A stretch of DNA of 64,000 nucleotides from Pyrinomonadaceae bacterium (GCA_035472495.1 DATIPD010000006.1:37312-101311); one strand, 5' to 3'. Shown: positions 20,128 to 30,560, counted from the first letter of the stretch. Notes: a model not told the origin generated them from the letters alone. Translations and numbers: made by a program.

Positions 20128-20928
20128 CTAGTTGTTGCCTTCTTCGATTATTTTAACTTTAGGGAGCGCACCAGATTTCAAGATCAAAGCAATATCTTCC
20201 GCTGACTGCCTGGTGAAGCGTCCGGAGATCTCGCCCTGATCGTTTATTTGGCTTTTGATAAAGGCGACGGATTTGATCTCGCCGTTGTAGATCACCGCGA
20301 CATATTCACTAATGTGCGCGCCGGTCCAGGCGCCAAACTTTTCCGCTCCTTCTGGTCTTAACGAAAACGCGATGGTGTACTCGTCGGGATTGGAACCAGC
20401 AACGGCAGTGGCGTTGCGCAAGTCGCCGCTCGCAACAATTGCGGGAGCTTCAACAACTCCCCAACGCCGTTCTCTGGCGTCGGCCGGCGCGTGCTGTCGT
20501 TCAGTGTAGGGCAGTACTAGCCGATTCGGGAGAGGCTTGCCACCGAACGAAGCGAGTGCCGCTTCTTTCGAGTCATACAATTTGGCCGGCGCTGGACTTG
20601 GAGGACTTACCAGATGACTGATTTCCAGCTGTCCCTCAGAACTCAACAGGCTTTTCAAACGTTCGCGGTCTGAAACGTTGGGAAGGCTAACTAATATCCG
20701 CCCGTTCGGGAGCGGCTTCACGTCATAATTAGAAAGACCAAGCGCGCTCAAACGGCTATCCAGTGTTGTGACCGCGTGATTTGTTGCCGCCTCACGATCT
20801 GGAACTTCCTGGTCGATCTCCAGAGTGACGTGCCAATCAAACGGTTGATGACGGTGTAACAACGTGCAGGCCATAACCGGGACGGCCAGGAATACGAGCG
20901 CCGCATGAGTGAGCGGTCTGAGCTTCAT
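20128..20928 (-). CDS. secreted protein resembling the SecD periplasmic P1-head domain (no TM core)
   Basis: Signal/anchor helix, then LDSRLSALGLSNYDVKPLPNGRILVSLPNV and VAVIYNGEIKSVAFIKSQINDQGEISGRFTRQSAEDIALILKSGALP. Both mirror SecD P1 motifs. Confidence 0.5.
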   Translation of the reverse strand: MKLRPLTHAALVFLAVPVMACTLLHRHQPFDWHVTLEIDQEVPDREAATNHAVTTLDSRLSALGLSNYDVKPLPNGRILVSLPNVSDRERLKSLLSSEGQLEISHLVSPPSPAPAKLYDSKEAALASFGGKPLPNRLVLPYTERQHAPADARERRWGVVEAPAIVASGDLRNATAVAGSNPDEYTIAFSLRPEGAEKFGAWTGAHISEYVAVIYNGEIKSVAFIKSQINDQGEISGRFTRQSAEDIALILKSGALPKVKIIEEGNN

Positions 20929-22238: not shown

Positions 22239-22928
22239 TTACGCGCTCTGAAAAGGGGAATTCGGCGGTGAAACGCCGAAAACTTCCCGGTGCAAAGCGG
22301 CGTAATCATCCCACGTGTCCATGTCGCGTGCAATCAAATTCGTTTTCACTTCAACGCGACGGACCAGCGCCTGGTGCTGGTTGAAAAAAGCTTTCAGGCC
22401 GGTATTTGGATCGAGCTGAAGCAGCTCTTCGCGGAAGCTCAGATCGACTAGCACCGGATGCCCGCCGCGTTGGTTGCACGTTGGCTTCACTAATAGCGCG
22501 CCGTTTTTCCATTCGGCAATAACTTGACGGACCACGTCTCCCGGCACTGCAGCATGGTCAACCGGATTGATGACTACGACTTTGCTCACCGCTGAAAGTG
22601 CATCGACCCCGCAGGCAATCGACGCATTCATCTCGCTGTGAGGGTCAGGATTGACGGCGAACGTCAGATCAAGATTGCGCAGTCGTTCTTTCAGTTCGGC
22701 AGCTCGCTTGTCCTGCCCGATGACGATTACGAATTGCTCAACTCCGCCGGCGCGTAGATTGTCGATGCAAGTTTCGACGACTGTTTTTGAACCAAAGGGA
22801 AGGAGGGGCTTGAACGCACCCATGCGGGACGAACGACCGGCGGCAAGGATGATGGCGGCAACGCTAAAGTCTGGAGTCGTGAGTCTGGAGTCTGGAGTCC
22901 GCGGATTTGGCAAAGGACTTTCACTCAT
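22239..22928 (-). CDS. MobA/MocA-like molybdenum cofactor nucleotidyltransferase
   Basis: AAIILAAGRSSRMGAFKPLLPFG motif (NTP_transf_3). Lies downstream of the molybdenum hydroxylase genes. Confidence 0.75.
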   Translation of the reverse strand: MSESPLPNPRTPDSRLTTPDFSVAAIILAAGRSSRMGAFKPLLPFGSKTVVETCIDNLRAGGVEQFVIVIGQDKRAAELKERLRNLDLTFAVNPDPHSEMNASIACGVDALSAVSKVVVINPVDHAAVPGDVVRQVIAEWKNGALLVKPTCNQRGGHPVLVDLSFREELLQLDPNTGLKAFFNQHQALVRRVEVKTNLIARDMDTWDDYAALHREVFGVSPPNSPFQSA

Positions 22929-22967: not shown

Positions 22968-23957
22968 CTAGACTAGTTCTTGCAGTGCTTTGATCGTGTA
23001 CTGTCTGGCCATTTGCTTGCGCCAGTTCATCACGAAGTCAGTGTTGTCGAGCGGGCGGGCTTTGATGTAGGCGGCTTCGGCGGCGGCTTGAATGTGATCA
23101 GTATCGAACGGCTGACCGATCAATGCCTGGTTCGCCTCGATGATGTTGAGCGGCGAAGGCGCAATGCCGCCGAGGATGATTTTTGCATCAGCGACGACGC
23201 GGTCGCTTCCGGTTCCGACATCCTTGATCCATGCCGCCACGCCCAGCACGGGAAAATCAAAGGCGCCCCGGCGACGCAGTTTTTGATACGACGCACGCCA
23301 GCCGTTGAGCGCGGGCAGATGAATATCGACTAGCAACTCGTCGGGTCGCTTCTTCAGGTAGTCGATCCCGTCGTCGTTGTAGAAACCGGCGGCATCGATC
23401 ATGCGTTCACCCAGAGTGGACAGCAGACGAAACTTCGCGCCAATCGCCACCATCACGGGGACTAAATCAGACGATTGCACTGCCCAGCATTTCGAGCTGC
23501 CCGGTGCTACCCAACAAACATCGCCGTCTTTTTTCAAACAGAAGTTAATGCCTTTGCGCCATTCGTAGTTCTGATCGTAGTAGTTACAGCGCGTATCGAG
23601 CAGCAGATTGCCGCCGATAGTGCCCATGTTGCGGAGGATGGGCGTCGAGATTGTGCGCGCTGCTTGAGCGATGACCGGATAGTCGCGCAGGATGATTGGG
23701 TGTTCGACGATGTCGGTGAGCGTTACGGAAGCGCCGATCCGAATTCCCGATTTGCCATCGCCAGTTATCTGGTTCAACTCCGGAACGCGCATCACGGAAA
23801 TCACTGTGCGCGGCGTCTGCTGCCGGCGCTTCATGTTGGGATAGAGATCGGTTCCCCCGGCGACAAACTGTGCGGTCGGCCCAACGTCGCCGACAATCTT
23901 CACCGCTTCCGCGATGGTGCGCGGCACGCGGTATTCAAATTTGGGCAGACGCATCAT
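22968..23957 (-). CDS. molybdenum-hydroxylase FAD-binding subunit with four-Cys insertion (4-hydroxybenzoyl-CoA reductase beta-like)
   Basis: CoxM/XdhB-type FAD domain (AGGTDLYPNMK) plus the insertion C-x15-C-x7-C-x8-C (CNYYDQNYEWRKGINFCLKKDGDVCWVAPGSSKC). Confidence 0.85.
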   Translation of the reverse strand: MMRLPKFEYRVPRTIAEAVKIVGDVGPTAQFVAGGTDLYPNMKRRQQTPRTVISVMRVPELNQITGDGKSGIRIGASVTLTDIVEHPIILRDYPVIAQAARTISTPILRNMGTIGGNLLLDTRCNYYDQNYEWRKGINFCLKKDGDVCWVAPGSSKCWAVQSSDLVPVMVAIGAKFRLLSTLGERMIDAAGFYNDDGIDYLKKRPDELLVDIHLPALNGWRASYQKLRRRGAFDFPVLGVAAWIKDVGTGSDRVVADAKIILGGIAPSPLNIIEANQALIGQPFDTDHIQAAAEAAYIKARPLDNTDFVMNWRKQMARQYTIKALQELV

Positions 23958-23990
23958 AAAGATTTTGTTTGTTCAGGACACCGACACGCG

Positions 23991-24446
23991 CTAGAGCGTT
24001 TTGTAAACTCTGCTCAGCTCGCCAAAGAATTCGGTACGGCGCATTTCGAGATCACCTTTGTAAGACTCCATTTTCTCCAAACTAATTGCCCGCGCAAGGA
24101 TCAGATCAGTTTTGTAACAGAGGATGTTCTCTCCATATTCTCTTAGAAGCTTTCGACCTGTTTCGTCCCCCAGAAGAATCAGTTTTGGTTCAGCGCTCGA
24201 CAATTGGTTGAATCCATCAGTTAGTTCTTCTCTTAGTTGCTCAAGCTTGTTATTTGCGGTTTCTTTAGTTTCCGTCGGCCATGCACGCTCGGTCCAGTTG
24301 AAGGCATATGCCCAATGCCTGAGAGCAAGTTGATGAAAAGTGGCCACTTCTAGCGACACGAGCTCCAACATTTCTCGCTGTCGCTGAAGACGCTCCTTTT
24401 CTATCGTCTGACGGTGATTGGCTCGGGTTAAGAAATAAGTCGTCAC
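23991..24446 (-). CDS. hypothetical protein
   Basis: 151-aa ORF with a GTG start and a helical, coiled-coil-like sequence. A hydrophobic segment lies just upstream in frame, so the start is uncertain. Confidence 0.35.
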   Translation of the reverse strand: MTTYFLTRANHRQTIEKERLQRQREMLELVSLEVATFHQLALRHWAYAFNWTERAWPTETKETANNKLEQLREELTDGFNQLSSAEPKLILLGDETGRKLLREYGENILCYKTDLILARAISLEKMESYKGDLEMRRTEFFGELSRVYKTL

Positions 24447-24545
24447 GCCACTGATGATCGCCCCGAGGCCAATTTGACTGCCGTGTCCAATATTTCGAGT
24501 TTAGTCACCATGCATTATTCCAAGGTCAGCGCGAAAACTGATGAG

Positions 24546-24712
24546 TCACGAATGCACAGCGACGCAGACCCATATCTTTCCCGTCGCCACCTTCCGTAGG
24601 TGTCAATACACGTAGGGTTCCGCCAGTAAACTGACGGAACAGCGCCTGGTCCAAAACGTCCGTTGCGGCTTTTTTCTGTTTAGGCAATGCAGGTAATCAG
24701 GCATATTCCTGC
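24546..24712 (-). pseudogene. degenerate duplicate of the 3' end of the Mo-subunit gene
   Basis: By eye, about 75% identical to 26040-26210 (e.g. the shared TCTTTCCCGTCGCCACCTTC). Encodes ...LRVLTPTEGGDGKDM..., then loses frame through small indels. Confidence 0.7.
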
Positions 24713-24718
24713 GTTCAT

Positions 24719-25177
24719 TCAGGCTCTTTTCTTCTCGTCAATTTTCAACTCTGGATGTCGCGCGAGAAAGCCCCCACGCTTCATCTTATATCGGCCGGGT
24801 TTGAGCATGTCATCGTCTGTCCAGCCGCGCTTTAAACCTGCGGCGTAGTCCTTTTCCGTAACGACGAGTTCAATCTCTTGCGACTTGGGTTTGGATTTCT
24901 CACTTTTCTTGTTCTTCATATGCCTTTCTTTCTGCAGATGTCGGTGGCCGCGCAGAATTATCCGAATGACGTCGCCGATTCGTTCGGCAAAGACGACGAA
25001 CAACATTCGCCTTGTGGAGTATCCGATAATGAAAAAGCGCCGGTCATTAAATGCATATTTTGCGTCTTGGCCTTCCACGGCGGTCGGGTCGTAGAAGACC
25101 TCTGTCGCCTCGCCGAAACTGACGCGGTGTTTCTTGAAGTTCGCAGTAGCCTTTCTGTCGTCCCATTCAAATCGCAA
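24719..25177 (-). CDS. BrnT-family (DUF497) toxin with about 55-aa Lys-rich C-terminal extension
   Basis: MRFEWDDRKATANFKKHRVSFGEATEVFYDP...VIRII is typical of BrnT. The ORF continues well past the usual end of the domain. Confidence 0.7.
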   Translation of the reverse strand: MRFEWDDRKATANFKKHRVSFGEATEVFYDPTAVEGQDAKYAFNDRRFFIIGYSTRRMLFVVFAERIGDVIRIILRGHRHLQKERHMKNKKSEKSKPKSQEIELVVTEKDYAAGLKRGWTDDDMLKPGRYKMKRGGFLARHPELKIDEKKRA

Positions 25178-25337
25178 ACCTTACACCCTTCATGATCTCT
25201 TCCTCACGAATCCACGGCCACGCTCGGCATGTCCGTCTCAGGCGAACGTGGATCAATCGGCCTTACCATTTATCTGATAATGATCACCACCGTCATCGAG
25301 CCCTTTGTCCGCGTCTCTTTCGTCTAGCAGTGTCAAC

Positions 25338-25451
25338 TTAGCGACGAAACTGTTTTGCGTAGATACCACGCCCGATAAATTTGAGTTTGCTCAGGTCGTA
25401 CTCTGGTCGCATTTCGTCGTCGTCCTCTGCCACCAACCGTTTCTTTTTCAT
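25338..25451 (-). pseudogene. truncated/frameshifted antitoxin-like ORF
   Basis: 37 codons (MKKKRLVAEDDDEMRPEYDLSKLKFIGRGIYAKQFRR). The RPEYDxSKxK..G.Y motif resembles small TA antitoxins. The expected continuation (LLDERDADKG...) lies in another frame. Confidence 0.35.
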
Positions 25452-25453
25452 AG

Positions 25454-26020
25454 CTAAGCGTGAACGGCAATGCCGAAGAATTTGCTTCCAACCAAAGCTT
25501 TAATCTTGATCAGTGGCTGATCGGGATGATCCGGGTTTGGTACCAGGCGAAGATTGGTGCAGTCGACCAGCAGATCGACCGTCTCCAGCACCGTTTGTCC
25601 AATCAAAACTTCCGAACCAAGCACCAGCATCTCTTCCGTGGTGCGACGTCCCATAATGTTGATGCCGACCATTTCCGAGACGCCAACTTCTTCGCGCGAG
25701 TCATTGGCGTAAACAGCACGTGCCGTTCTCACAACTTCCAATCCTAAATGCTGAAGTACCTGAACCGGCAACACGGAGCGAATCGCCCCTGTATCAACTA
25801 GCGCCGTTGTCTCGTAATAACGAATCTGATCCGACGTGAGCAGTCCTCGCCGAACCAATGCTTCGTCGGCGCCGTTGACTAGCTTCACTTGAGCTCTGAC
25901 TTCACCCATGAGCGCGTACACCTCGCTAGCATGCTTCACAATTTCGGGAATGGTCCGAATTGTGCGGACATGGCTCACAGAGCGCAATGTCGAGACTTCT
26001 AATCGCGTTTTCTTTTCCAT
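25454..26020 (-). CDS. retropepsin-like (clan AA) aspartic protease
   Basis: ALVDTGA catalytic motif and an MGEVRAQVKLVN...ALVRRGLL N-terminal pattern. The start is M22 (26020) or M59 (25909) of the track ORF. Confidence 0.6.
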   Translation of the reverse strand: MEKKTRLEVSTLRSVSHVRTIRTIPEIVKHASEVYALMGEVRAQVKLVNGADEALVRRGLLTSDQIRYYETTALVDTGAIRSVLPVQVLQHLGLEVVRTARAVYANDSREEVGVSEMVGINIMGRRTTEEMLVLGSEVLIGQTVLETVDLLVDCTNLRLVPNPDHPDQPLIKIKALVGSKFFGIAVHA

Positions 26021-26039
26021 GCAAATTCTCTGGCAGTGA

Positions 26040-28493
26040 CTACGAATGCACGGCCACGCTGGGCATCTCTTTCCCGTCGCCACCTTCAGCTGGTGTCAAC
26101 ACCCGCAGCGGCTCCGGCCAGTCGACTGACGGCACCGCGCCGGGGCCAAAGCGTCCGTCGCGGCCTTTATCTTTTTCACGTAGCGCTTTCAAAACTTTCT
26201 CAGGTGTAATCGGCACTTCATCAATGCGCACACCGACGGCGTCGTAAACCGCATTAGCCACCGCCGGCGGCACCGGCAACAACGGGCCTTGTCCAACTTC
26301 CTTCGCACCGTAGGGCCCATTCGGATCCGGATCCTCGATCAAGTACGTCTTAACGTCGCACATTTCCATCGTGGTTGGGCTCTTATACTCAAGCATCGAC
26401 GGAAACTTGTGCACTACATTTCGGTTGGCGCGGTACGTCATTTCTTCCATCAGGACTTCGCCGAGACCCATGTACACGCTGCCCTCGACCTGTCCCATCA
26501 CCAGCATCGGATTGATCGACTTGCCGATGTCGTGCGCAATCCAGATTCGTTCGACGACGACGATCCCGGTATCACGATCGACGTCGACTTCCGCGATCGC
26601 TGCCGAGTAACTGTAAGCCGGCGACGGGCCCACGCCGGCGCCTTTGAATCTTCCCGGCGAACGCGGCGGTGAATAGGAACCAACCGTTCCGATCGTGCCA
26701 AACTTTGATTCCGCCAACACAACCGCTTCGGCAAAAGAAACGGCAACTTCCGGGTTTTCGACATCGAACGCGCGGCGTTCAGCAAGGCCTACATTTTCAA
26801 CGGGTACGCCCAGCTTTTCCGCGACTGCCAGCACCAGCAATTCGCGGGCACGCTCAGCGGCCTGGATCGCTGCGTTGCCGGTCATCAGTGTGACCCGACT
26901 GGAATAACTACCAAGGTCAACCGGCGTCAGATCTGTGTCTGCAGTGATCACGCGAATGTCGAACGGATCGATGCCGAGTACTTCGGCGACGATGTAAGCG
27001 AGAATCGAATCCGAACCCTGGCCGATGTCTGTCGAACCGCACATCACACAAACGCCACCCTGACGATCAAGTCGCAACTGAACGCCGGACTGCGGCATGT
27101 TGTTCCAGTAGATCGGCAGTCCCGCGCCGCAAATGTACGAGCTGCAGGCGATGCCGATGCCTTTGCCGTCAGGAAGTTTGCGATTGTTGAAGTCCCAACC
27201 CGAAAACTTACTCTTCCAATCAGAGCCCGCGACGATTTTGTCGAGGCACGCACCCAGACCCATGCTGCCAATGCGTAAATAATTCGCCGTCACGGTATTC
27301 GGTTTGACGAGGTTCGCCCGTCGCATGGCAGCCGGATCGAGTTTTAGTTCTTCCGCGATTTTGTCGAGTTGCACTTCCAGCGCGTAACGAGGCTGCGGCG
27401 TTCCGTGTCCACGCTTTGGCCCGCACGGCGGCTTGTTAGTGAACGCGCGCAGTCCCTGGAATTTGTAGCGAGGCACTTCGTACGTCACCGTTTGCAGCGC
27501 GCCCGTGTAGAAGGTGCTGGCAACGCCGTAACTTCCATAGGCGCCGCCATCGAGGAACGACTGAAAATGCATTCCGGTGATCGCGCCGTCTTTTGTGACG
27601 CCGGTTTTGATGTTCATCAACACCGGATGGCGTCCGCGGTGGCAGTAGAAAACTTCTTCGCGGGTGAGTGTCACCTTCACCGGGCGACCGGTAATCATCG
27701 AGAGTTTGCAAACGATAACTTCGTGATTGAACGGATCGCTCTTGCCGCCAAAGCCGCCACCGTTTGGCGTAGCAATCACGCGGATGTGGCTGGCGGGCAA
27801 CTGCAAAACTTTTGCGAGCGCGCGATGAACGTAATGAGGCGTTTGGGTGGAACTCCAGAGAGTGATCTTGCCGTCGGGATCAAAATTGCCGATGGCGGCG
27901 TGTTGCTCCATCGGCAAGTGAGTGTTGCCTTCGTAGAAAAAGATGTCTTCGCGAATTAGATCGGCGGCGGCGAAACCTTCCTCGATGTTCCCAAATTCCA
28001 GCGAGACTTTCTTGTGGATGTTGGCTTCGTCGCCGTACTCGTGAATCCGTGGTTCGTCAATGAGAATGGCTTCGTCAATTGACGAGATAGTTTGCAGCGG
28101 TTCGTATTCGACTTCGATCAGATTCATCGCGTCGAAAGCGACGTCTTCATCAACGGCTGCGACCGCCGCTACCGGATCACCAATGAACCGAACCTTGTCG
28201 GTGCAGAGTGCGTGTTCGTCCTGGCTGACCGGAAGAATTCCATAGGAGATGGGGAGATCTTTGCCGGTGATAATCGCAAAAACGCCCGGCAAAGCTGCTG
28301 CTTTGGAAACATCGATGTTTTTGATGAGCGCGTGGGGCAGGTGACTGCGCAAGATCTTGCAGGCGAGCATGCGCGGCAGCACGATGTCGTCGGCAAACCT
28401 GGTTTGCCCGGTACACTTCGCGCGCGCGTCAACCTTGCGGAAAGGTTTGCCGACTACGTTAAGCGGTTTCTTGTTGTTTCCGTTCGTGGTCAT
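26040..28493 (-). CDS. molybdopterin-binding large subunit of a xanthine-dehydrogenase-family hydroxylase/reductase (HcrA-like)
   Basis: 817 aa with aldehyde oxidase/XDH a/b-hammerhead and MoCo-binding domains (GGGFGGK, AHDIGKSINP, GAKEVGQGP). Confidence 0.9.
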   Translation of the reverse strand: MTTNGNNKKPLNVVGKPFRKVDARAKCTGQTRFADDIVLPRMLACKILRSHLPHALIKNIDVSKAAALPGVFAIITGKDLPISYGILPVSQDEHALCTDKVRFIGDPVAAVAAVDEDVAFDAMNLIEVEYEPLQTISSIDEAILIDEPRIHEYGDEANIHKKVSLEFGNIEEGFAAADLIREDIFFYEGNTHLPMEQHAAIGNFDPDGKITLWSSTQTPHYVHRALAKVLQLPASHIRVIATPNGGGFGGKSDPFNHEVIVCKLSMITGRPVKVTLTREEVFYCHRGRHPVLMNIKTGVTKDGAITGMHFQSFLDGGAYGSYGVASTFYTGALQTVTYEVPRYKFQGLRAFTNKPPCGPKRGHGTPQPRYALEVQLDKIAEELKLDPAAMRRANLVKPNTVTANYLRIGSMGLGACLDKIVAGSDWKSKFSGWDFNNRKLPDGKGIGIACSSYICGAGLPIYWNNMPQSGVQLRLDRQGGVCVMCGSTDIGQGSDSILAYIVAEVLGIDPFDIRVITADTDLTPVDLGSYSSRVTLMTGNAAIQAAERARELLVLAVAEKLGVPVENVGLAERRAFDVENPEVAVSFAEAVVLAESKFGTIGTVGSYSPPRSPGRFKGAGVGPSPAYSYSAAIAEVDVDRDTGIVVVERIWIAHDIGKSINPMLVMGQVEGSVYMGLGEVLMEEMTYRANRNVVHKFPSMLEYKSPTTMEMCDVKTYLIEDPDPNGPYGAKEVGQGPLLPVPPAVANAVYDAVGVRIDEVPITPEKVLKALREKDKGRDGRFGPGAVPSVDWPEPLRVLTPAEGGDGKEMPSVAVHS

Positions 28494-28502
28494 GAAAAAT
28501 AT

Positions 28503-28592
28503 TAGCCGCGGATTTACGCGGTCAAACGCGGATCTGAAAGCTGCTAGAAAAGATCTGCGGATTCGCGGAGATCCGCGTTAATCCGCGGCTGA
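28503..28592. repeat. Fam-J (CCGCGGAT/GCGGATCT) palindromic element
   Basis: Arms TAGCCGCGGATTTACGCGGTCAAACGCGGATCTG and AGATCTGCGGATTCGCGGAGATCCGCGTTAATCCGCGGCTGA, between the Fe-S and Mo subunit genes. Confidence 0.65.
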
Positions 28593-28593
28593 T

Positions 28594-29130
28594 TTACTCC
28601 AAACCGTAAACGCTCTCGCGCGGCAGTTCGATCTCCTCACCCCGCATGCGCGCGGCGGCGAGTTCGACGGCTTCGTATATTTTTATGTAGCCGGTGCAGC
28701 GACAAAGGTTTCCTGACAACGCTTCTTTGATTACTTCGCGCGAAGGATTTGGGTTCTTTTTCAGCAACTCCTCAGCGACCAGCAAAAACCCGGGCGAACA
28801 ATAACCACACTGCGCCGCGCCGGTGTCAGCAAATGTGTGCTGCAGTGGATGAAGCTCAGCGCCATTCGCCATTCCTTCGATCGTCTTTACTTCCTGTTCC
28901 GCCGCGTCGAGTCCCAGCATCAAACACGAAAGAATTGAGCGACCATTGACCAGCACTGCGCAGGTACCACACTCACCGAGTTCACAGCCGTGCTTGGTTC
29001 CGATCAAACCCAAATCTTCACGCAACACTTCGAGCAGAGTCTTATGCGGCGCGAAGGCTACCTCGGCGGCTTCGCCATTGAGCGTGAATTTGATGAGGGT
29101 CTTTTGTTTTTGCATTTCTTCCTGTGCCAT
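28594..29130 (-). CDS. [2Fe-2S]-binding small subunit of the molybdenum hydroxylase
   Basis: Two 2Fe-2S cysteine clusters (GCELGECGTCAV; CGYCSPGF...CRCTGY). Confidence 0.9.
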   Translation of the reverse strand: MAQEEMQKQKTLIKFTLNGEAAEVAFAPHKTLLEVLREDLGLIGTKHGCELGECGTCAVLVNGRSILSCLMLGLDAAEQEVKTIEGMANGAELHPLQHTFADTGAAQCGYCSPGFLLVAEELLKKNPNPSREVIKEALSGNLCRCTGYIKIYEAVELAAARMRGEEIELPRESVYGLE

Positions 29131-29138
29131 CCTAGCGA

Positions 29139-29447
29139 TTACGAAAGCCCCTCGCGAGTCTCTTGAAATTTCGCCAAGTCCCGGGCGCCATGAATGACTG
29201 CAAGCACTTCAAGTCGATTGTCACCGATCCGATAGATTAGTCGATAGTGTTGATACAACACTTCACGAACGTTCTCGTCATTCTTTTCGGGAGCAACGCG
29301 ACCCGCATTAGGGTATTTTGCTACTCCTTCCGCAGCCAGAATAAGTTGTTGCACGAAACCGCTGGCATACACGTCAGAGTCTCTAGCTATGTAGGCGTAC
29401 AATTCGCGAAGGTCTTCAACGGCGGGTTCGGTCCAGACTATCTTCAT
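29139..29447 (-). CDS. RelE/ParE-family type II toxin
   Basis: 102 aa with a ParE-like pattern (W...A..DL..I..YI, YRLIYRI...LEVLAVIHGARD). Confidence 0.8.
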   Translation of the reverse strand: MKIVWTEPAVEDLRELYAYIARDSDVYASGFVQQLILAAEGVAKYPNAGRVAPEKNDENVREVLYQHYRLIYRIGDNRLEVLAVIHGARDLAKFQETREGLS

Positions 29448-29623
29448 TCGCGTGCAAAGAGCTCTTTCACTTCGTCGTGGGGAACAGTGCGGCTCTCATC
29501 AGCGGCCTTAATACCTTCCTCAATCTTTCGCTTAACGTATAGCCGATACATGATGTCTTCCCAGGTTGCGTCCTCAGGAAGCCGGGAAATCAACTGTAGG
29601 GCTTCGTCTTTGGTGGTACTCAT
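29444..29623 (-). CDS. type II antitoxin partner of the ParE-like toxin (59 aa, below the ORF-track cutoff)
   Basis: Hand-translated as MSTTKDEALQLISRLPEDATWEDIMYRLYVKRKIEEGIKAADESRTVPHDEVKELFARE. Its TGA overlaps the toxin ATG (ATGA). Confidence 0.6.
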   Translation of the reverse strand: MSTTKDEALQLISRLPEDATWEDIMYRLYVKRKIEEGIKAADESRTVPHDEVKELFARE

Positions 29624-29678
29624 AAAGCGTATCTACTGCTCCAAAGTGACAAGAAAAATATAGCATAAACAACTCCGC

Positions 29679-30560
29679 TTACGCCTTTGCACTTCCCGCG
29701 TCCTTCTTGACCTTATTCAACATGATGTTGTCGATCAGACGCGTTTTGCCCACAAATGCCGCAACGGCAATTAACACCTGGCGGTCGTCGATCTTGTCTA
29801 ACTTCTCGAGCGTGTCGGCATCTACGAGACTAACGTAATCCAGCCGCACTCTCGGCTCAGTCTCAATCGTTGTACGGATGACATCGGCGAGCTTGGCGGC
29901 GTGACGCTCACCGCCCTTGTAAGTCTCTTTTGCTTTTTTTAACGCACGATGAATGATCGCGGCCGACTCTTTTTCTTCGTCATCGAGGTAAAGATTCCGC
30001 GAAGAAATTGCCAGCCCGGAATCTTCGCGAACTGTCGGCAAAACGACAATCTCGGTATCAAACGCGAGGTCGCGCACCATGCGTTTTATGATCAGGGCTT
30101 GCTGGGCGTCTTTCTGTCCGAAGAACGCGAAGTCGGGTCGGATCGCGTTGAGCAGGATTGCAACGATGGTGACGACTCCGCGAAAGTGTCCCGGCCGCGA
30201 CTCGCCCTCCAGCAACTTGGAAAGTCCGCCGACGTTTACGTAAGTGGAAAAATCTTTCGGGTAAATCTCTTCCGGGTTGGGTGCGAAAATGTAATCGACG
30301 TTGTAGTCGGTCAACAGGGCAGTGTCTTTAGTGAGATTGCGCGGATAGTGTTCGTAGTCTTCGCTTGGTCCAAATTGAGTTGGATTCACGAATACTGAAA
30401 CGACGACGACATCGCACATGCGGCGAGCTTCGCGCACCAGACTCAGGTGGCCCTCATGCAGCGCCCCCATTGTTGGCACCAGCCCAATTGTTTTGTCCTG
30501 CTCGCGGCGAATTTTGCGCGACACCGAAGTCATTCGCTGCCGCCGATTGATAATTTCCAT
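29679..30560 (-). CDS. panC: pantoate--beta-alanine ligase
   Basis: GLVPTMGALHEGHLSLV and GHFRGV motifs. Confidence 0.9.
   Translation of the reverse strand: MEIINRRQRMTSVSRKIRREQDKTIGLVPTMGALHEGHLSLVREARRMCDVVVVSVFVNPTQFGPSEDYEHYPRNLTKDTALLTDYNVDYIFAPNPEEIYPKDFSTYVNVGGLSKLLEGESRPGHFRGVVTIVAILLNAIRPDFAFFGQKDAQQALIIKRMVRDLAFDTEIVVLPTVREDSGLAISSRNLYLDDEEKESAAIIHRALKKAKETYKGGERHAAKLADVIRTTIETEPRVRLDYVSLVDADTLEKLDKIDDRQVLIAVAAFVGKTRLIDNIMLNKVKKDAGSAKA

What the first reader, a model, noticed from the sequence alone, without database searches (positions are those of the whole stretch)
24546..26210. 1.3-kb toxin/protease cassette inserted into the operon, bracketed by a duplicated gene 3' end
The last about 165 nt of the Mo-subunit gene (26040-26210) recur 1.5 kb downstream at 24546-24712 at roughly 75% identity by eye. 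For example, TCTTTCCCGTCGCCACCTTC is shared, and both copies encode LRVLTP(A/T)EGGDGK(E/D)M. The downstream copy has lost frame. Between the copies lie a retropepsin-like protease, an antitoxin remnant and a BrnT-like toxin. This is the footprint left by elements that integrate into a gene's 3' end and carry a replacement end. However, no integrase is present, and the cassette splits the Mo and FAD subunit genes.
Basis: seen in the sequence. Interest (0 to 1): 0.65.

Follow-up and report, generated by a model that had tools for sequence, protein, structure and literature searches.

The report
Displaced gene ends mark stacked cassette insertions
Leftover copies of one enzyme gene's tail show that small toxin-antitoxin and protease genes were stacked, one insertion after another, inside a conserved soil-bacterium operon without any mobility gene of their own; this resembles a known kind of recombination-driven cassette turnover, not a new mobile element.

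Summary
The repeat is real. Window 24546-24681 matches the Mo-subunit gene's 3' end (26040-26176) at 80% over 136 nt (E 1e-23), and the downstream copy carries two frameshifts.

There is more than one repeat. A 30-nt copy sits at 25204-25233, just before BrnT. The retropepsin ORF's own tail (25454-25486) is probably a fourth, decayed copy.

In about 120 related Pyrinomonadaceae loci the Mo-FAD gap runs from 20 bp to 3.6 kb. It holds same-strand toxin-antitoxin, defence-like and retropepsin genes. I found no integrase or transposase among the ORFs I scanned.

Mo-end fragments recur there: at the retropepsin tail in about half of the carriers, before BrnT in L006, and before DUF6883 in L118 and L019. 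Each fragment is followed by the stop codon and spacer seen in retropepsin-less genomes.

The retropepsin cassette brings its own Mo end. The Mo stop is TAG in 35 of 43 carriers against 13 of 60 non-carriers. The cassette has also moved between lineages.

My best reading is serial 3'-end displacement by homologous or illegitimate recombination, as in Rhs tip displacement, in a hypervariable slot inside the operon. "One 1.3-kb integrative cassette" is not. This is a new variant of a known kind, of moderate interest.

The parts
28594..29130 (-). 2Fe-2S subunit gene of a xanthine-dehydrogenase-family Mo-hydroxylase; first gene of the operon
   Evidence: Pfam Fer2 and Fer2_2; NCBIfam gamma-subunit models
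26040..28493 (-). Mo-cofactor subunit gene (817 aa). It is closest to 4-hydroxybenzoyl-CoA reductase alpha but scores below that model's cut-off
   Evidence: Pfam Ald_Xan_dh_C, MoCoBD_1 and MoCoBD_2; TIGR03194 scores 827 bits against a cut-off of 995; 85-92% aa identity to 80 Pyrinomonadaceae orthologues through residue 817
26040..26176 (-). Copy 1: the functional Mo 3' end. It encodes the C-terminal extension (about residues 772-817) that lies beyond the family models. It ends in TAG
   Evidence: family models end at residues 771-774
26021..26039 (-). 19-nt leader of the retropepsin cassette (TCACTGCCAGAGAATTTGC), conserved in relatives as TTGCCAGAGAAYTTGC
25454..26020 (-). Retropepsin-like (clan AA) aspartic protease gene, 188 aa, with an LVDTGA motif. 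It is the Mo-proximal, newest layer
   Evidence: Pfam gag-asp_proteas 1.3e-5 and TIGR03698 8e-13, both below cut-off. It is 91% nt identical to L006 while the flanking Mo gene is about 80% identical
25454..25486 (-). Retropepsin tail: probably a decayed Mo-end copy. The protein ends ..IAVHA*; the Mo protein ends ..VAVHS*
   Evidence: Weight-matrix score -9.7 against a background 99th percentile of -15.7. Its tail has the same length as those of L085/L092, which end in a near-perfect Mo-end copy (53 bits)
25253..25451 (-). Pseudogene of the 'f3' family, the roughly 94-aa putative antitoxin that follows BrnT in relatives. It has 37 N-terminal codons, then a frameshift, and is truncated at the 3' end
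   Evidence: DNA matches to L005 and L008
25204..25233 (-). Copy 2: a 30-nt Mo-end fragment ending in TGA, 26 nt upstream of BrnT. It shares the window-specific AGC and GCC codons with copy 1
   Evidence: Its junction with BrnT is colinear (79%, 75/95) with the Mo-end-to-BrnT junction of the retropepsin-less locus L058
24719..25177 (-). BrnT-family toxin gene with a 1-nt deletion near codon 75. The canonical ..IISARPPTSAERKAYEEQEK* ending now lies out of frame. The gene is fused to a 66-aa 'f0C' ORF (ATG at 24919) of unknown family
   Evidence: Pfam BrnT_toxin 4.5e-19; frame analysis; f0C relatives
24546..24681 (-). Copy 3: a 136-nt Mo-end pseudocopy with two frameshifts, ending in TGA. This is the oldest displaced end
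   Evidence: its closest match is the window's own Mo end
23991..24446 (-). ORF151: an orphan ORF, possibly frameshifted at its N-terminus. It is the FAD-proximal, oldest cargo
   Evidence: It has no homologue among 5.8 billion proteins except itself, no family match and no counterpart in the 80 genome loci; upstream frames
22968..23957 (-). FAD-binding subunit gene, intact
   Evidence: Pfam FAD_binding_5 and CO_deh_flav_C
22239..22928 (-). MobA/MocA-like nucleotidyltransferase gene; last gene of the operon
   Evidence: Pfam NTP_transf_3 2e-32

Best explanation
The gap between the Mo-subunit and FAD-subunit genes is a hypervariable slot inside the operon in Pyrinomonadaceae (Acidobacteriota). 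It collects promoter-less genes on the operon's strand: BrnT modules, DUF6883/DUF4926, HicAB, defence-like genes and a retropepsin-like protease.

New cargo arrives attached to a fresh copy of the Mo gene's 3' end and is joined in at the Mo-proximal side. The resident Mo-end fragment, together with the cargo that followed it, is pushed downstream. I call this serial 3'-end displacement.

In the window at least three such layers are stacked: Mo | retropepsin + tail fragment | f3 pseudogene | 30-nt fragment | BrnT pseudogene-f0C | 136-nt fragment | ORF151 | FAD.

The joining is most likely ordinary recombination. The left side would be homologous exchange in the Mo gene. The right side would be either an illegitimate join or a short homologous exchange with the resident Mo end. 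An equivalent route is single-crossover insertion of a circle that carries a Mo-end fragment plus cargo, as proposed for Rhs tips. No recombinase in cis is needed.

Shown: the repeats, the variable slot, the colinearity of displaced junctions, the link between the TAG stop and the retropepsin cassette, and transfer of the cassette between lineages. Inferred: the recombination route, co-transcription with the operon, and retention through toxin-antitoxin addiction or a defence benefit.
For: (1) The repeats are significant.

(2) In 65 orthologous loci that carry both genes, the gap is 20-3601 bp. Its cargo is variable and all on the same strand. I found no integrase or transposase among the cargo ORFs scanned.

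(3) Mo-end fragments recur in relatives exactly where the model predicts them. Retropepsin tails score above the background 99th percentile in 21 of 42 loci, and the L085/L092 tail is near-perfect. Fragments also lie before BrnT in L006 and before DUF6883 in L118 and L019.

(4) Each displaced fragment is followed by the stop codon and spacer of a junction that exists intact in retropepsin-less genomes: L085 vs L026 86%, L011 vs L003 81%, window copy 2 vs L058 79%.

(5) The functional Mo end travels with the cassette. The stop is TAG in 35/43 carriers against 13/60 non-carriers. Displaced copies show the non-carrier mix of stop codons.

(6) The cassette moves between lineages. Retropepsin genes are 91-98% nt identical between species whose Mo genes are about 80% identical, and L040/L036 carry it in a different Mo clade.

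(7) Copy 3 derives from the window lineage's own Mo end.

(8) No terminator-like signal above chance lies in the insert, and gene spacing is tight.

(9) The insert has lower GC (46-52%) than its flanks (54-59%).

(10) The same logic was proposed for Rhs C-terminal tip displacement (PMC2935791).
Against: I found no co-transferred tract of high identity in the 3' part of Mo next to the cassette, which a homologous left crossover predicts. The genes may be too diverged to show one.

Several independent-looking fragments begin at nearly the same place, about -30 to -45 nt from the stop. A circle-inheritance model explains this, but it would also fit a site-specific cut.

Homology of 30 nt is marginal for RecA-dependent exchange.

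Most cargo boundaries carry no Mo-end fragment.

No presence/absence polymorphism or excised form was seen in the one run that holds the sequence, although only contigs were available.

The TAG statistic is not corrected for phylogeny.
Confidence: 0.6

Rival explanations
1. Site-specific integration in trans. An unlinked tyrosine or serine recombinase would treat the Mo gene's last 30-45 nt as an att site and insert integrase-less cassettes there, building an integron-like array.
For: Direct repeats of a gene's 3' end around an insert are the classic att footprint. Fragment starts cluster at about -30 to -45 nt for the retropepsin tails, window copy 2, the L006 copy and L118/L019. The retropepsin cassette sits at the same site in at least four different resident contexts.
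Against: I found no recombinase among the gap ORFs scanned across about 120 loci. Fragment length is not fixed, since copy 3 is 136 nt. Third codon positions of the Mo end vary freely, so the sequence is constrained as protein, not as a DNA site. There are no attC-like inverted repeats, and cargo genes often abut within 6-30 nt. Most module boundaries have no repeat.
Confidence: 0.15
2. Local tandem duplication. The 136-nt copy, and perhaps the 30-nt one, arose by unequal or illegitimate exchange within this lineage, duplicating the Mo end plus downstream DNA. Cargo between the copies was replaced or decayed later, so the repeats are not insertion footprints.
For: Copy 3 is most similar to the window's own Mo end and shares 14 lineage-specific bases with it. 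Copy 2 shares the window-specific AGC and GCC codons. Tandem duplication is a common spontaneous event (general knowledge).
Against: No duplicated cargo is left between the copies. Relatives show the same fragment-then-resident-junction pattern with cargo that is clearly foreign to the junction. The link between TAG and the retropepsin cassette shows that ends arrive with cargo.
Confidence: 0.12
3. The fragments are kept for a function. The retained piece starts just upstream of an in-frame ATG and reads MP(R/S)VAVHS*. As a mini-ORF, or as the tail of the retropepsin ORF, it could end translation at the original stop and keep translational coupling to the next gene. Alternatively, the shared C-terminal peptide could be a recognition tag for the protease. 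This reading explains the common -30 boundary by selection, and it is compatible with the best explanation.
For: The fragments in the window (copy 2), L006, L011, L012 and L085 all start at GA(G/C)ATG and are followed within 7-26 nt by the next start codon. Retropepsin ORFs read through the fragment in frame in many loci. A bacterial retropepsin-like protease is reported to regulate a ribosomal modification system (title and abstract of PMC11957791).
Against: Half of the retropepsin tails have decayed beyond recognition. Copy 3 is out of frame. No expression data are available. Retropepsin paralogues in other operons have no such tail.
Confidence: 0.08
4. Metagenome assembly artefact that joins strain variants through the shared Mo end.
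For: The window comes from a soil metagenome.
Against: The copies are only 80% identical and share at most a 20-mer, too short for k-mer bridging. An independent contig spans 23812-28600 at a uniform 63x. Analogous stacked fragments occur in several independent assemblies: L006, L085/L087, L091/L092 and L118.
Confidence: 0.02

Closest known systems
Rhs (and CdiA) C-terminal tip displacement with arrays of dissociated or orphan tips (Jackson et al. 2009, PMC2935791)
   Same: An intact gene is followed by tandem fragments of its own 3' end. The fragments vary in length and each is attached to different downstream cargo. The newest layer lies nearest the gene. No mobility gene is present. That paper proposes homologous recombination with circles that carry a core fragment plus cargo.
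   Different: Here the replaced end encodes the same conserved C-terminal peptide, not an alternative toxin domain. The cargo consists of independent genes (toxin-antitoxin, defence-like, protease). The host gene is a metabolic enzyme subunit inside an operon. The fragments are much shorter, 30-136 nt.
Genomic islands or prophages that integrate into the 3' end of a gene and carry a replacement end (attL/attR duplication)
   Same: Direct repeats of the gene's 3' end flank the insert. The incoming DNA supplies the functional end, as the TAG association shows. The displaced end lies distal to the insert.
   Different: There is no integrase in cis in any locus examined. The layers are 0.2-1.5 kb, not many kilobases. 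Repeat length varies. The target is not conserved at the DNA level.
Minimal mobile elements and core-gene-flanked hotspots (Neisseria concept; my own knowledge, with papers listed)
   Same: Two conserved flanking genes hold different whole-gene cassettes in different genomes. Exchange is inferred to occur by homologous recombination, and there are no mobility genes.
   Different: The slot lies inside an operon between two subunits of one enzyme. All cargo is co-oriented. Displaced 3'-end fragments record the order of arrival.
Chromosomal integron cassette arrays and CALINs (my own knowledge)
   Same: A tandem array of small, promoter-less, co-oriented cassettes rich in toxin-antitoxin genes, with the newest next to the entry site.
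   Different: There is no IntI and there are no attC hairpin sites. The repeats are pieces of a coding sequence.
BrnT/BrnA type II toxin-antitoxin modules
   Same: The toxin has the BrnT domain (Pfam 4.5e-19), and it comes first in the module, followed by a small partner gene.
   Different: The window's BrnT is frameshifted. The partner families (f3, f0C) match neither the Pfam BrnA model nor any other family.

Membership tests
Integrase-mediated integrative element at a gene 3' end | Direct repeats derived from the target gene's 3' end flank the insert | tested here: met
Integrase-mediated integrative element at a gene 3' end | A tyrosine or serine recombinase gene inside the element | tested here: not met
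   No recombinase domain in the window's insert ORFs or in the representative and larger gap ORFs of relatives. Not every small ORF in every locus was scanned.
Integrase-mediated integrative element at a gene 3' end | A fixed crossover core of constant length and position | tested here: inconclusive
   Fragment starts cluster at about -30 to -45 nt, but one fragment starts at -136
Integrase-mediated integrative element at a gene 3' end | The incoming DNA supplies the functional replacement end | tested here: met
   TAG stop in 35/43 carriers against 13/60 non-carriers. The displaced copy keeps the resident stop codon and spacer.
Integron / CALIN | attC sites (imperfect inverted repeats of 55-140 nt) between cassettes, and an IntI gene | tested here: not met
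   Only weak inverted repeats with 14-19-nt arms set far apart. Inter-gene spacers are often 6-30 nt. No IntI was found in the loci examined. No dedicated attC model was run.
Integron / CALIN | A co-oriented array of promoter-less cassettes | tested here: met
   All recurrent gap gene families (those found in several loci) lie on the operon strand. No promoter or terminator signal above chance.
Rhs/CDI-type 3'-end (C-terminal) displacement | An intact gene followed by tandem fragments of its own 3' end, each attached to different cargo, with fragments of variable length | tested here: met
   The window has fragments of 136 nt and 30 nt plus a probable decayed one. L006, L118, L019 and L085 show the same pattern.
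Rhs/CDI-type 3'-end (C-terminal) displacement | Displaced units encode alternative C-terminal toxin domains of the same protein plus cognate immunity genes | tested here: not met
   All 80 orthologues keep the same ..EMPRVAVHS C-terminus. The cargo consists of separate genes.
Rhs/CDI-type 3'-end (C-terminal) displacement | Insertion by homologous recombination through a circular intermediate | not testable with these tools
   Only contigs were available, and no excision joint was seen
Minimal mobile element / core-flanked hotspot | The same two conserved flanking genes with different cassettes, or none, in different genomes, and no mobility genes | tested here: met
BrnT/BrnA type II toxin-antitoxin system | An intact BrnT toxin ORF | tested here: not met
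   The domain is present, but a 1-nt deletion shifts the frame before the conserved ..IISARP.. C-terminus
BrnT/BrnA type II toxin-antitoxin system | An adjacent BrnA-family antitoxin | tested here: not met
   The partner families f3 and f0C have no Pfam or NCBIfam match. Antitoxin status is inferred from position only.
Clan AA (retropepsin-like) aspartic protease | Family model score above the curated cut-off, and a D-T/S-G active-site motif | tested here: inconclusive
   The LVDTGA motif is present. Pfam scores 26.1 against a cut-off of 28.2, and TIGR03698 scores 48.6 against 57.35. NCBI and JGI name close homologues 'clan AA aspartic protease'.

The most novel reading that the evidence does not exclude
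The Mo gene's last 30-45 nt would be the entry site of an unrecognised cassette system driven by a recombinase in trans, or by a site-directed break. In effect this would be an integron-like array built inside a housekeeping operon. The retropepsin-like gene, which is also found wedged between nuoG|nuoH, hisC|hisB and sdhC|sdhA in Acidobacteriota, would be a new kind of selfish gene that inserts between the genes of operons.
Probability: 0.1. Interest if true: 0.8.

Novelty: new variant of a known kind. Interest (0 to 1): 0.5.

Why it matters
The locus preserves, as a stack of leftover gene ends, the order in which accessory genes entered a conserved metabolic operon in a poorly studied but abundant soil phylum.

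It shows that toxin-antitoxin and defence-like genes can accumulate between the subunit genes of one enzyme without an integrase. It also shows that a short duplicated gene end can act as a portable homology handle, letting a cassette (here the retropepsin gene) spread between species.

This extends the displacement logic known from Rhs and CDI toxin genes to ordinary operons. It gives a simple sequence signature, namely tandem decaying copies of a gene's 3' end, for finding such slots elsewhere.

If the entry step turns out to be site-specific, this would be a new cassette system.

Tried and rejected
1. A 33-nt Mo-end weight matrix scanned over all gap sequences of the 80 genome loci found strong hits only in L006 and L011. 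Most module boundaries therefore carry no fragment, and I dropped the idea that every cassette is flanked by a repeat.

2. I looked for the same signature at the ParE-type module between panC and the 2Fe-2S gene (28950-29900) and found no direct repeats.

3. I thought I saw short duplications of the upstream gene's end beside retropepsin paralogues in the nuo and sdh operons. A pairwise test over 41 non-Mo loci gave an observed mean score of 7.3 against a null of 6.9, which is not significant, so I rejected this.

4. I searched for high-identity tracts co-transferred in the 3' part of Mo next to the cassette, using sliding windows and nearest neighbours per segment. There was no signal.

5. 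The correlation between retropepsin divergence and Mo divergence was uninformative (Spearman 0.10) because Mo nucleotide identity is saturated at about 80%.

6. Exact look-ups for ORF151 and for the called 118-aa version found no contigs. The homology search returned only the query itself.

7. Public runs gave one soil metagenome holding the locus, as contigs only. I saw no presence/absence variant and no RNA data.

8. My first family query for the small ORF (protein 3, 25339-25452) was one base out of frame, and so was the 'small38' tblastn query. Both should be ignored. The correct ORF starts at 25451.

9. Literature searches for retropepsin plus toxin-antitoxin, for TIGR03698, and for Pyrinomonadaceae plus toxin-antitoxin found nothing relevant.

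10. One script call returned no answer and was repeated.

Full report
**Observation**

On the minus strand the window carries an operon: a 2Fe-2S subunit gene (29130..28594), a Mo-cofactor subunit gene (28493..26040, 817 aa), about 2.1 kb of inserted DNA, a FAD subunit gene (23957..22968) and a MocA-like gene (22928..22239).

BLASTN of 24546-24700 against the whole window finds 26042-26176 at 80.1% identity over 136 nt with three gaps, E = 1.4e-23. The local alignment score is 76, against 8.9 +/- 1.4 in 1000 dinucleotide shuffles (searches agree). The shared 20-mer and the shared peptide LRVLTP(A/T)EGGDGK(E/D)M are both present. The downstream copy reads in three different frames, so it has two frameshifts. 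The similarity covers about 136-145 nt, not 165, and identity is about 80%.

An independent contig from the source run spans 23812-28600 at a uniform 63x, which rules out an assembly chimera.

A third copy of the Mo end, 30 nt long, lies at 25204-25233. It sits 26 nt upstream of the BrnT start. It matches the real end at 25 of 28 positions, and the 25-nt degenerate pattern ATGCCSAGCGTGGCCGTGSATTCGT finds only these two sites, with no match expected by chance.

The retropepsin ORF (26020..25454) ends ..IAVHA*, while the Mo protein ends ..VAVHS*. The ORF's last 33 nt score above the 99th percentile of background on a Mo-end weight matrix. Its tail is also the same length as the tails in relatives that end in an unmistakable Mo-end copy. 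It is probably an old fourth copy.

The "antitoxin remnant" starts at 25451, has 37 codons, then a frameshift, and is truncated at about 25253. It belongs to a 94-aa family ("f3") that follows BrnT in relatives. BrnT (25177..) carries the Pfam BrnT domain (4.5e-19). A 1-nt deletion puts its conserved ..IISARPPTSAERKAYEEQEK* ending out of frame and fuses the gene to a 66-aa ORF ("f0C", ATG at 24919).

Between the 136-nt copy and the FAD gene lies ORF151, an orphan with no homologue other than itself among 5.8 billion proteins.

Read in the direction of transcription, the layout is: Mo | retropepsin + tail fragment | f3 pseudogene | 30-nt fragment | BrnT pseudogene-f0C | 136-nt fragment | ORF151 | FAD. 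The insert has 46-52% GC against 54-59% in the flanks. It contains no terminator-like signal above chance.

**Relatives**

Eighty orthologous loci came from Pyrinomonadaceae genomes, with Mo proteins 85-92% identical through the last residue. More came from metagenomes. Synteny is the same throughout: panB, panC, 2Fe-2S, Mo, FAD, MocA, redoxin, RidA.

The Mo-FAD gap ranges from 20 bp (L030) to 3601 bp (L001). It is 160 bp or less in 13 of the 65 loci that carry both genes.

All the recurrent gap gene families (those found in several loci) lie on the operon strand. They include a retropepsin-like gene that is always first after Mo, BrnT with f3 and/or f0C, DUF6883 + DUF4926, HicA/HicB, a polysaccharide deacetylase, a coiled-coil protein, and, next to FAD, assorted defence-like genes (HNH, DUF4062, a nucleotide cyclase, NOV_C). 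I found no integrase or transposase among the ORFs I scanned.

**Mo-end fragments are a recurring feature of the slot**

- In 21 of 42 retropepsin-bearing loci the ORF tail scores above the 99th percentile of background for the Mo-end matrix. In L085, L087, L091 and L092 the tail is AGCGAGATGCCGCGCGTGGCGGTGCATTCGTGA, and the protease ends ..EMPRVAVHS* exactly as the Mo subunit does.
- L006 has a near-perfect copy 1.5 kb downstream, after retropepsin + HicAB + one ORF and just before BrnT.
- L118 and L019 have a roughly 40-nt copy after f0C and just before DUF6883.

In each case the fragment is followed by the stop codon, spacer and start of a junction that exists intact in genomes without the retropepsin gene:

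| Displaced fragment plus downstream | Intact junction it matches | Identity |
|---|---|---|
| L085 | L026, Mo to DUF6883 | 86% (80/93) |
| L011 | L003, Mo to BrnT | 81% |
| Window copy 2 | L058, Mo to BrnT | 79% (75/95) |

. A fragment is therefore the displaced end of a former Mo-to-cargo junction.

**The incoming DNA brings its own Mo end**

Among non-redundant loci the Mo stop codon is TAG in 35/43 retropepsin carriers and in 13/60 non-carriers (Fisher p = 2e-9, not corrected for phylogeny). Within the main clade the figures are 14/20 against 1/15. Displaced copies end in TAA, TGA and TAG in proportions similar to those of non-carriers.

The cassette has also moved between lineages:

- The window and L006 share a retropepsin gene 91% identical in nucleotides, next to Mo genes that are about 80% identical. 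The high-identity tract starts at the ATG and stops at the last conserved codon.
- L040 and L007 are 93-98% identical over 300 nt, although L040 and L036 sit in a different Mo clade.

**Origin of the 136-nt copy**

The 136-nt copy is closer to the window's own Mo end (76.4% over 144 aligned nt) than to any of 78 other Mo ends (71.5% or less). At the 27 sites where the window's end departs from the family consensus, the copy agrees with the window at 14 and with the consensus at 6. It is the lineage's own, older end. It was not imported from a distant donor.

Its start at about -136 nt coincides with the start of a 45-aa C-terminal extension that lies beyond all family models. I cannot say whether this coincidence means anything.

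**Mechanism**

The best fit is serial 3'-end displacement by general recombination. On the left there would be a homologous exchange in the Mo gene. On the right there would be an illegitimate join, or a short homologous exchange with the resident Mo end. The equivalent route, proposed for Rhs tips (PMC2935791), is this: recombination between two end copies excises a circle of [end fragment + cargo], and that circle later inserts by a single crossover into a Mo end.

The circle version explains several observations:

- why the functional end, including its stop codon and leader, travels with the cargo;
- why the displaced copy keeps the resident stop codon and spacer;
- why a given fragment length (about 30-45 nt) is inherited across different cargo types;
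- why no recombinase is needed in cis.

Addition rather than replacement would be favoured if the resident toxin-antitoxin modules are addictive. That step is inference. The damaged state of f3, BrnT and perhaps ORF151 shows that the older layers are decaying.

**Weaknesses of this reading**

- I found no co-transferred tract in the 3' part of Mo.
- Homology of 30 nt is marginal for RecA.
- The clustering of fragment starts near -30 to -45 nt would also fit a site-specific cut.
- The TAG statistic is not phylogenetically corrected.
- No polymorphism or excision product could be seen in contig-only data.

**Rivals**

- A recombinase acting in trans (0.15) is not excluded. Against it: no recombinase in any locus examined, variable fragment length, free variation at third codon positions of the "site", and no attC-like structure.
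- A purely local tandem duplication (0.12) fits the lineage-own origin of copy 3. It does not fit the colinearity data or the TAG data from relatives.
- A functional reason for keeping the fragment (0.08), such as a mini-ORF MP(R/S)VAVHS* that preserves translational coupling or a protease recognition tail, is an add-on idea that can be tested. It is not a replacement for the main explanation.
- An assembly artefact (0.02) is very unlikely.

**Comparison with known systems**

The locus works like Rhs/CDI tip displacement and like Neisseria-type minimal mobile elements or core-flanked hotspots. It fails defining features of several families:

- integrase-borne islands, because there is no recombinase and no fixed core;
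- integrons, because there is no IntI and no attC;
- Rhs/CDI proper, because the cargo is not an alternative C-terminus of the host protein.

I rate it a new variant of a known kind, of moderate interest.

**A side observation that may deserve its own look**

The retropepsin-like domain (55-67% identical to the window's) also occurs in other Acidobacteriota contigs. There it is wedged a few nucleotides from both neighbours, between nuoG|nuoH, hisC|hisB, sdhC|sdhA, an M24 peptidase|cyclase pair and Wzy|DegT. Those sites show no significant flanking duplication.

Noticed in passing
L136, L141 (nuoG|nuoH); L135 (hisC|hisB); L145, L170 (sdhC|sdhA); L133, L150, L153, L168 (M24 peptidase|cyclase); L157 (Wzy_C|DegT); L148 (two tandem copies after an AcrB-like gene): A roughly 137-aa retropepsin-like gene, 55-67% identical to the window's, is wedged on the same strand a few nucleotides from both neighbours, between consecutive genes of several conserved operons. 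Cluster-mates of the neighbouring or retropepsin proteins are named Pyrinomonadaceae (nuo context) and Acidobacteriota (sdh context) by their sources. The family looks like a habitual hitch-hiker inside operons. I found no significant flanking duplication at these sites.
   Followed up: partly
window 29139-29623 (minus strand): A ParE/RelE-like toxin (102 aa) and a 59-aa putative antitoxin sit between panC and the 2Fe-2S subunit gene. The pair is present in L085/L086 and absent in L081/L088, so this is a second variable toxin-antitoxin slot at the head of the same operon. It has no flanking direct repeats.
   Followed up: partly
window 26040-26176 (Mo subunit residues about 772-817): The Mo subunit carries a 45-aa C-terminal extension (..GRDGRFGPGAVPSVDWPEPLRVLTPAEGGDGKEMPSVAVHS) beyond the end of every family model. 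It is conserved to the last residue in 80 orthologues. The 136-nt duplicated piece corresponds almost exactly to this extension.
   Followed up: no
L001 13085-13813; L019 12971-13606; L023 12868-13443; L078 11246-11704; L010 11336-12406: The FAD-proximal position of the slot holds a different, defence-like gene in each genome: DUF4062, an HNH endonuclease, a nucleotide cyclase, NOV_C and a weak UDG-like gene.
   Followed up: partly
L090 5001-5765; L097: In L090 the retropepsin ORF runs in frame into f0C, giving a 254-aa fusion protein. f0C (..VELVVTQEDYEAGLKRGWTDDDMLKPGRYKMKRGGFLKRHPELKLEEKKRA) is a conserved small protein with no family match. In different genomes it follows BrnT, f3 or the retropepsin gene.
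   Followed up: no
window 20128-20928 (minus strand): A 266-aa ORF lies between the RidA-like and enoyl-CoA hydratase genes. L088/L089 have a SecD_1st/SecDF_P1_head-domain gene at that position, while L081 and L085 have nothing there. This may be another variable position in the same neighbourhood.
   Followed up: no
window 24400-24545 (minus strand): Upstream of ORF151, a 22-codon ORF (MVTKLEILDTAVKLASG..) in another frame would join ORF151's frame into a plausible N-terminal transmembrane segment. This suggests that ORF151 is itself frameshifted.
   Followed up: no
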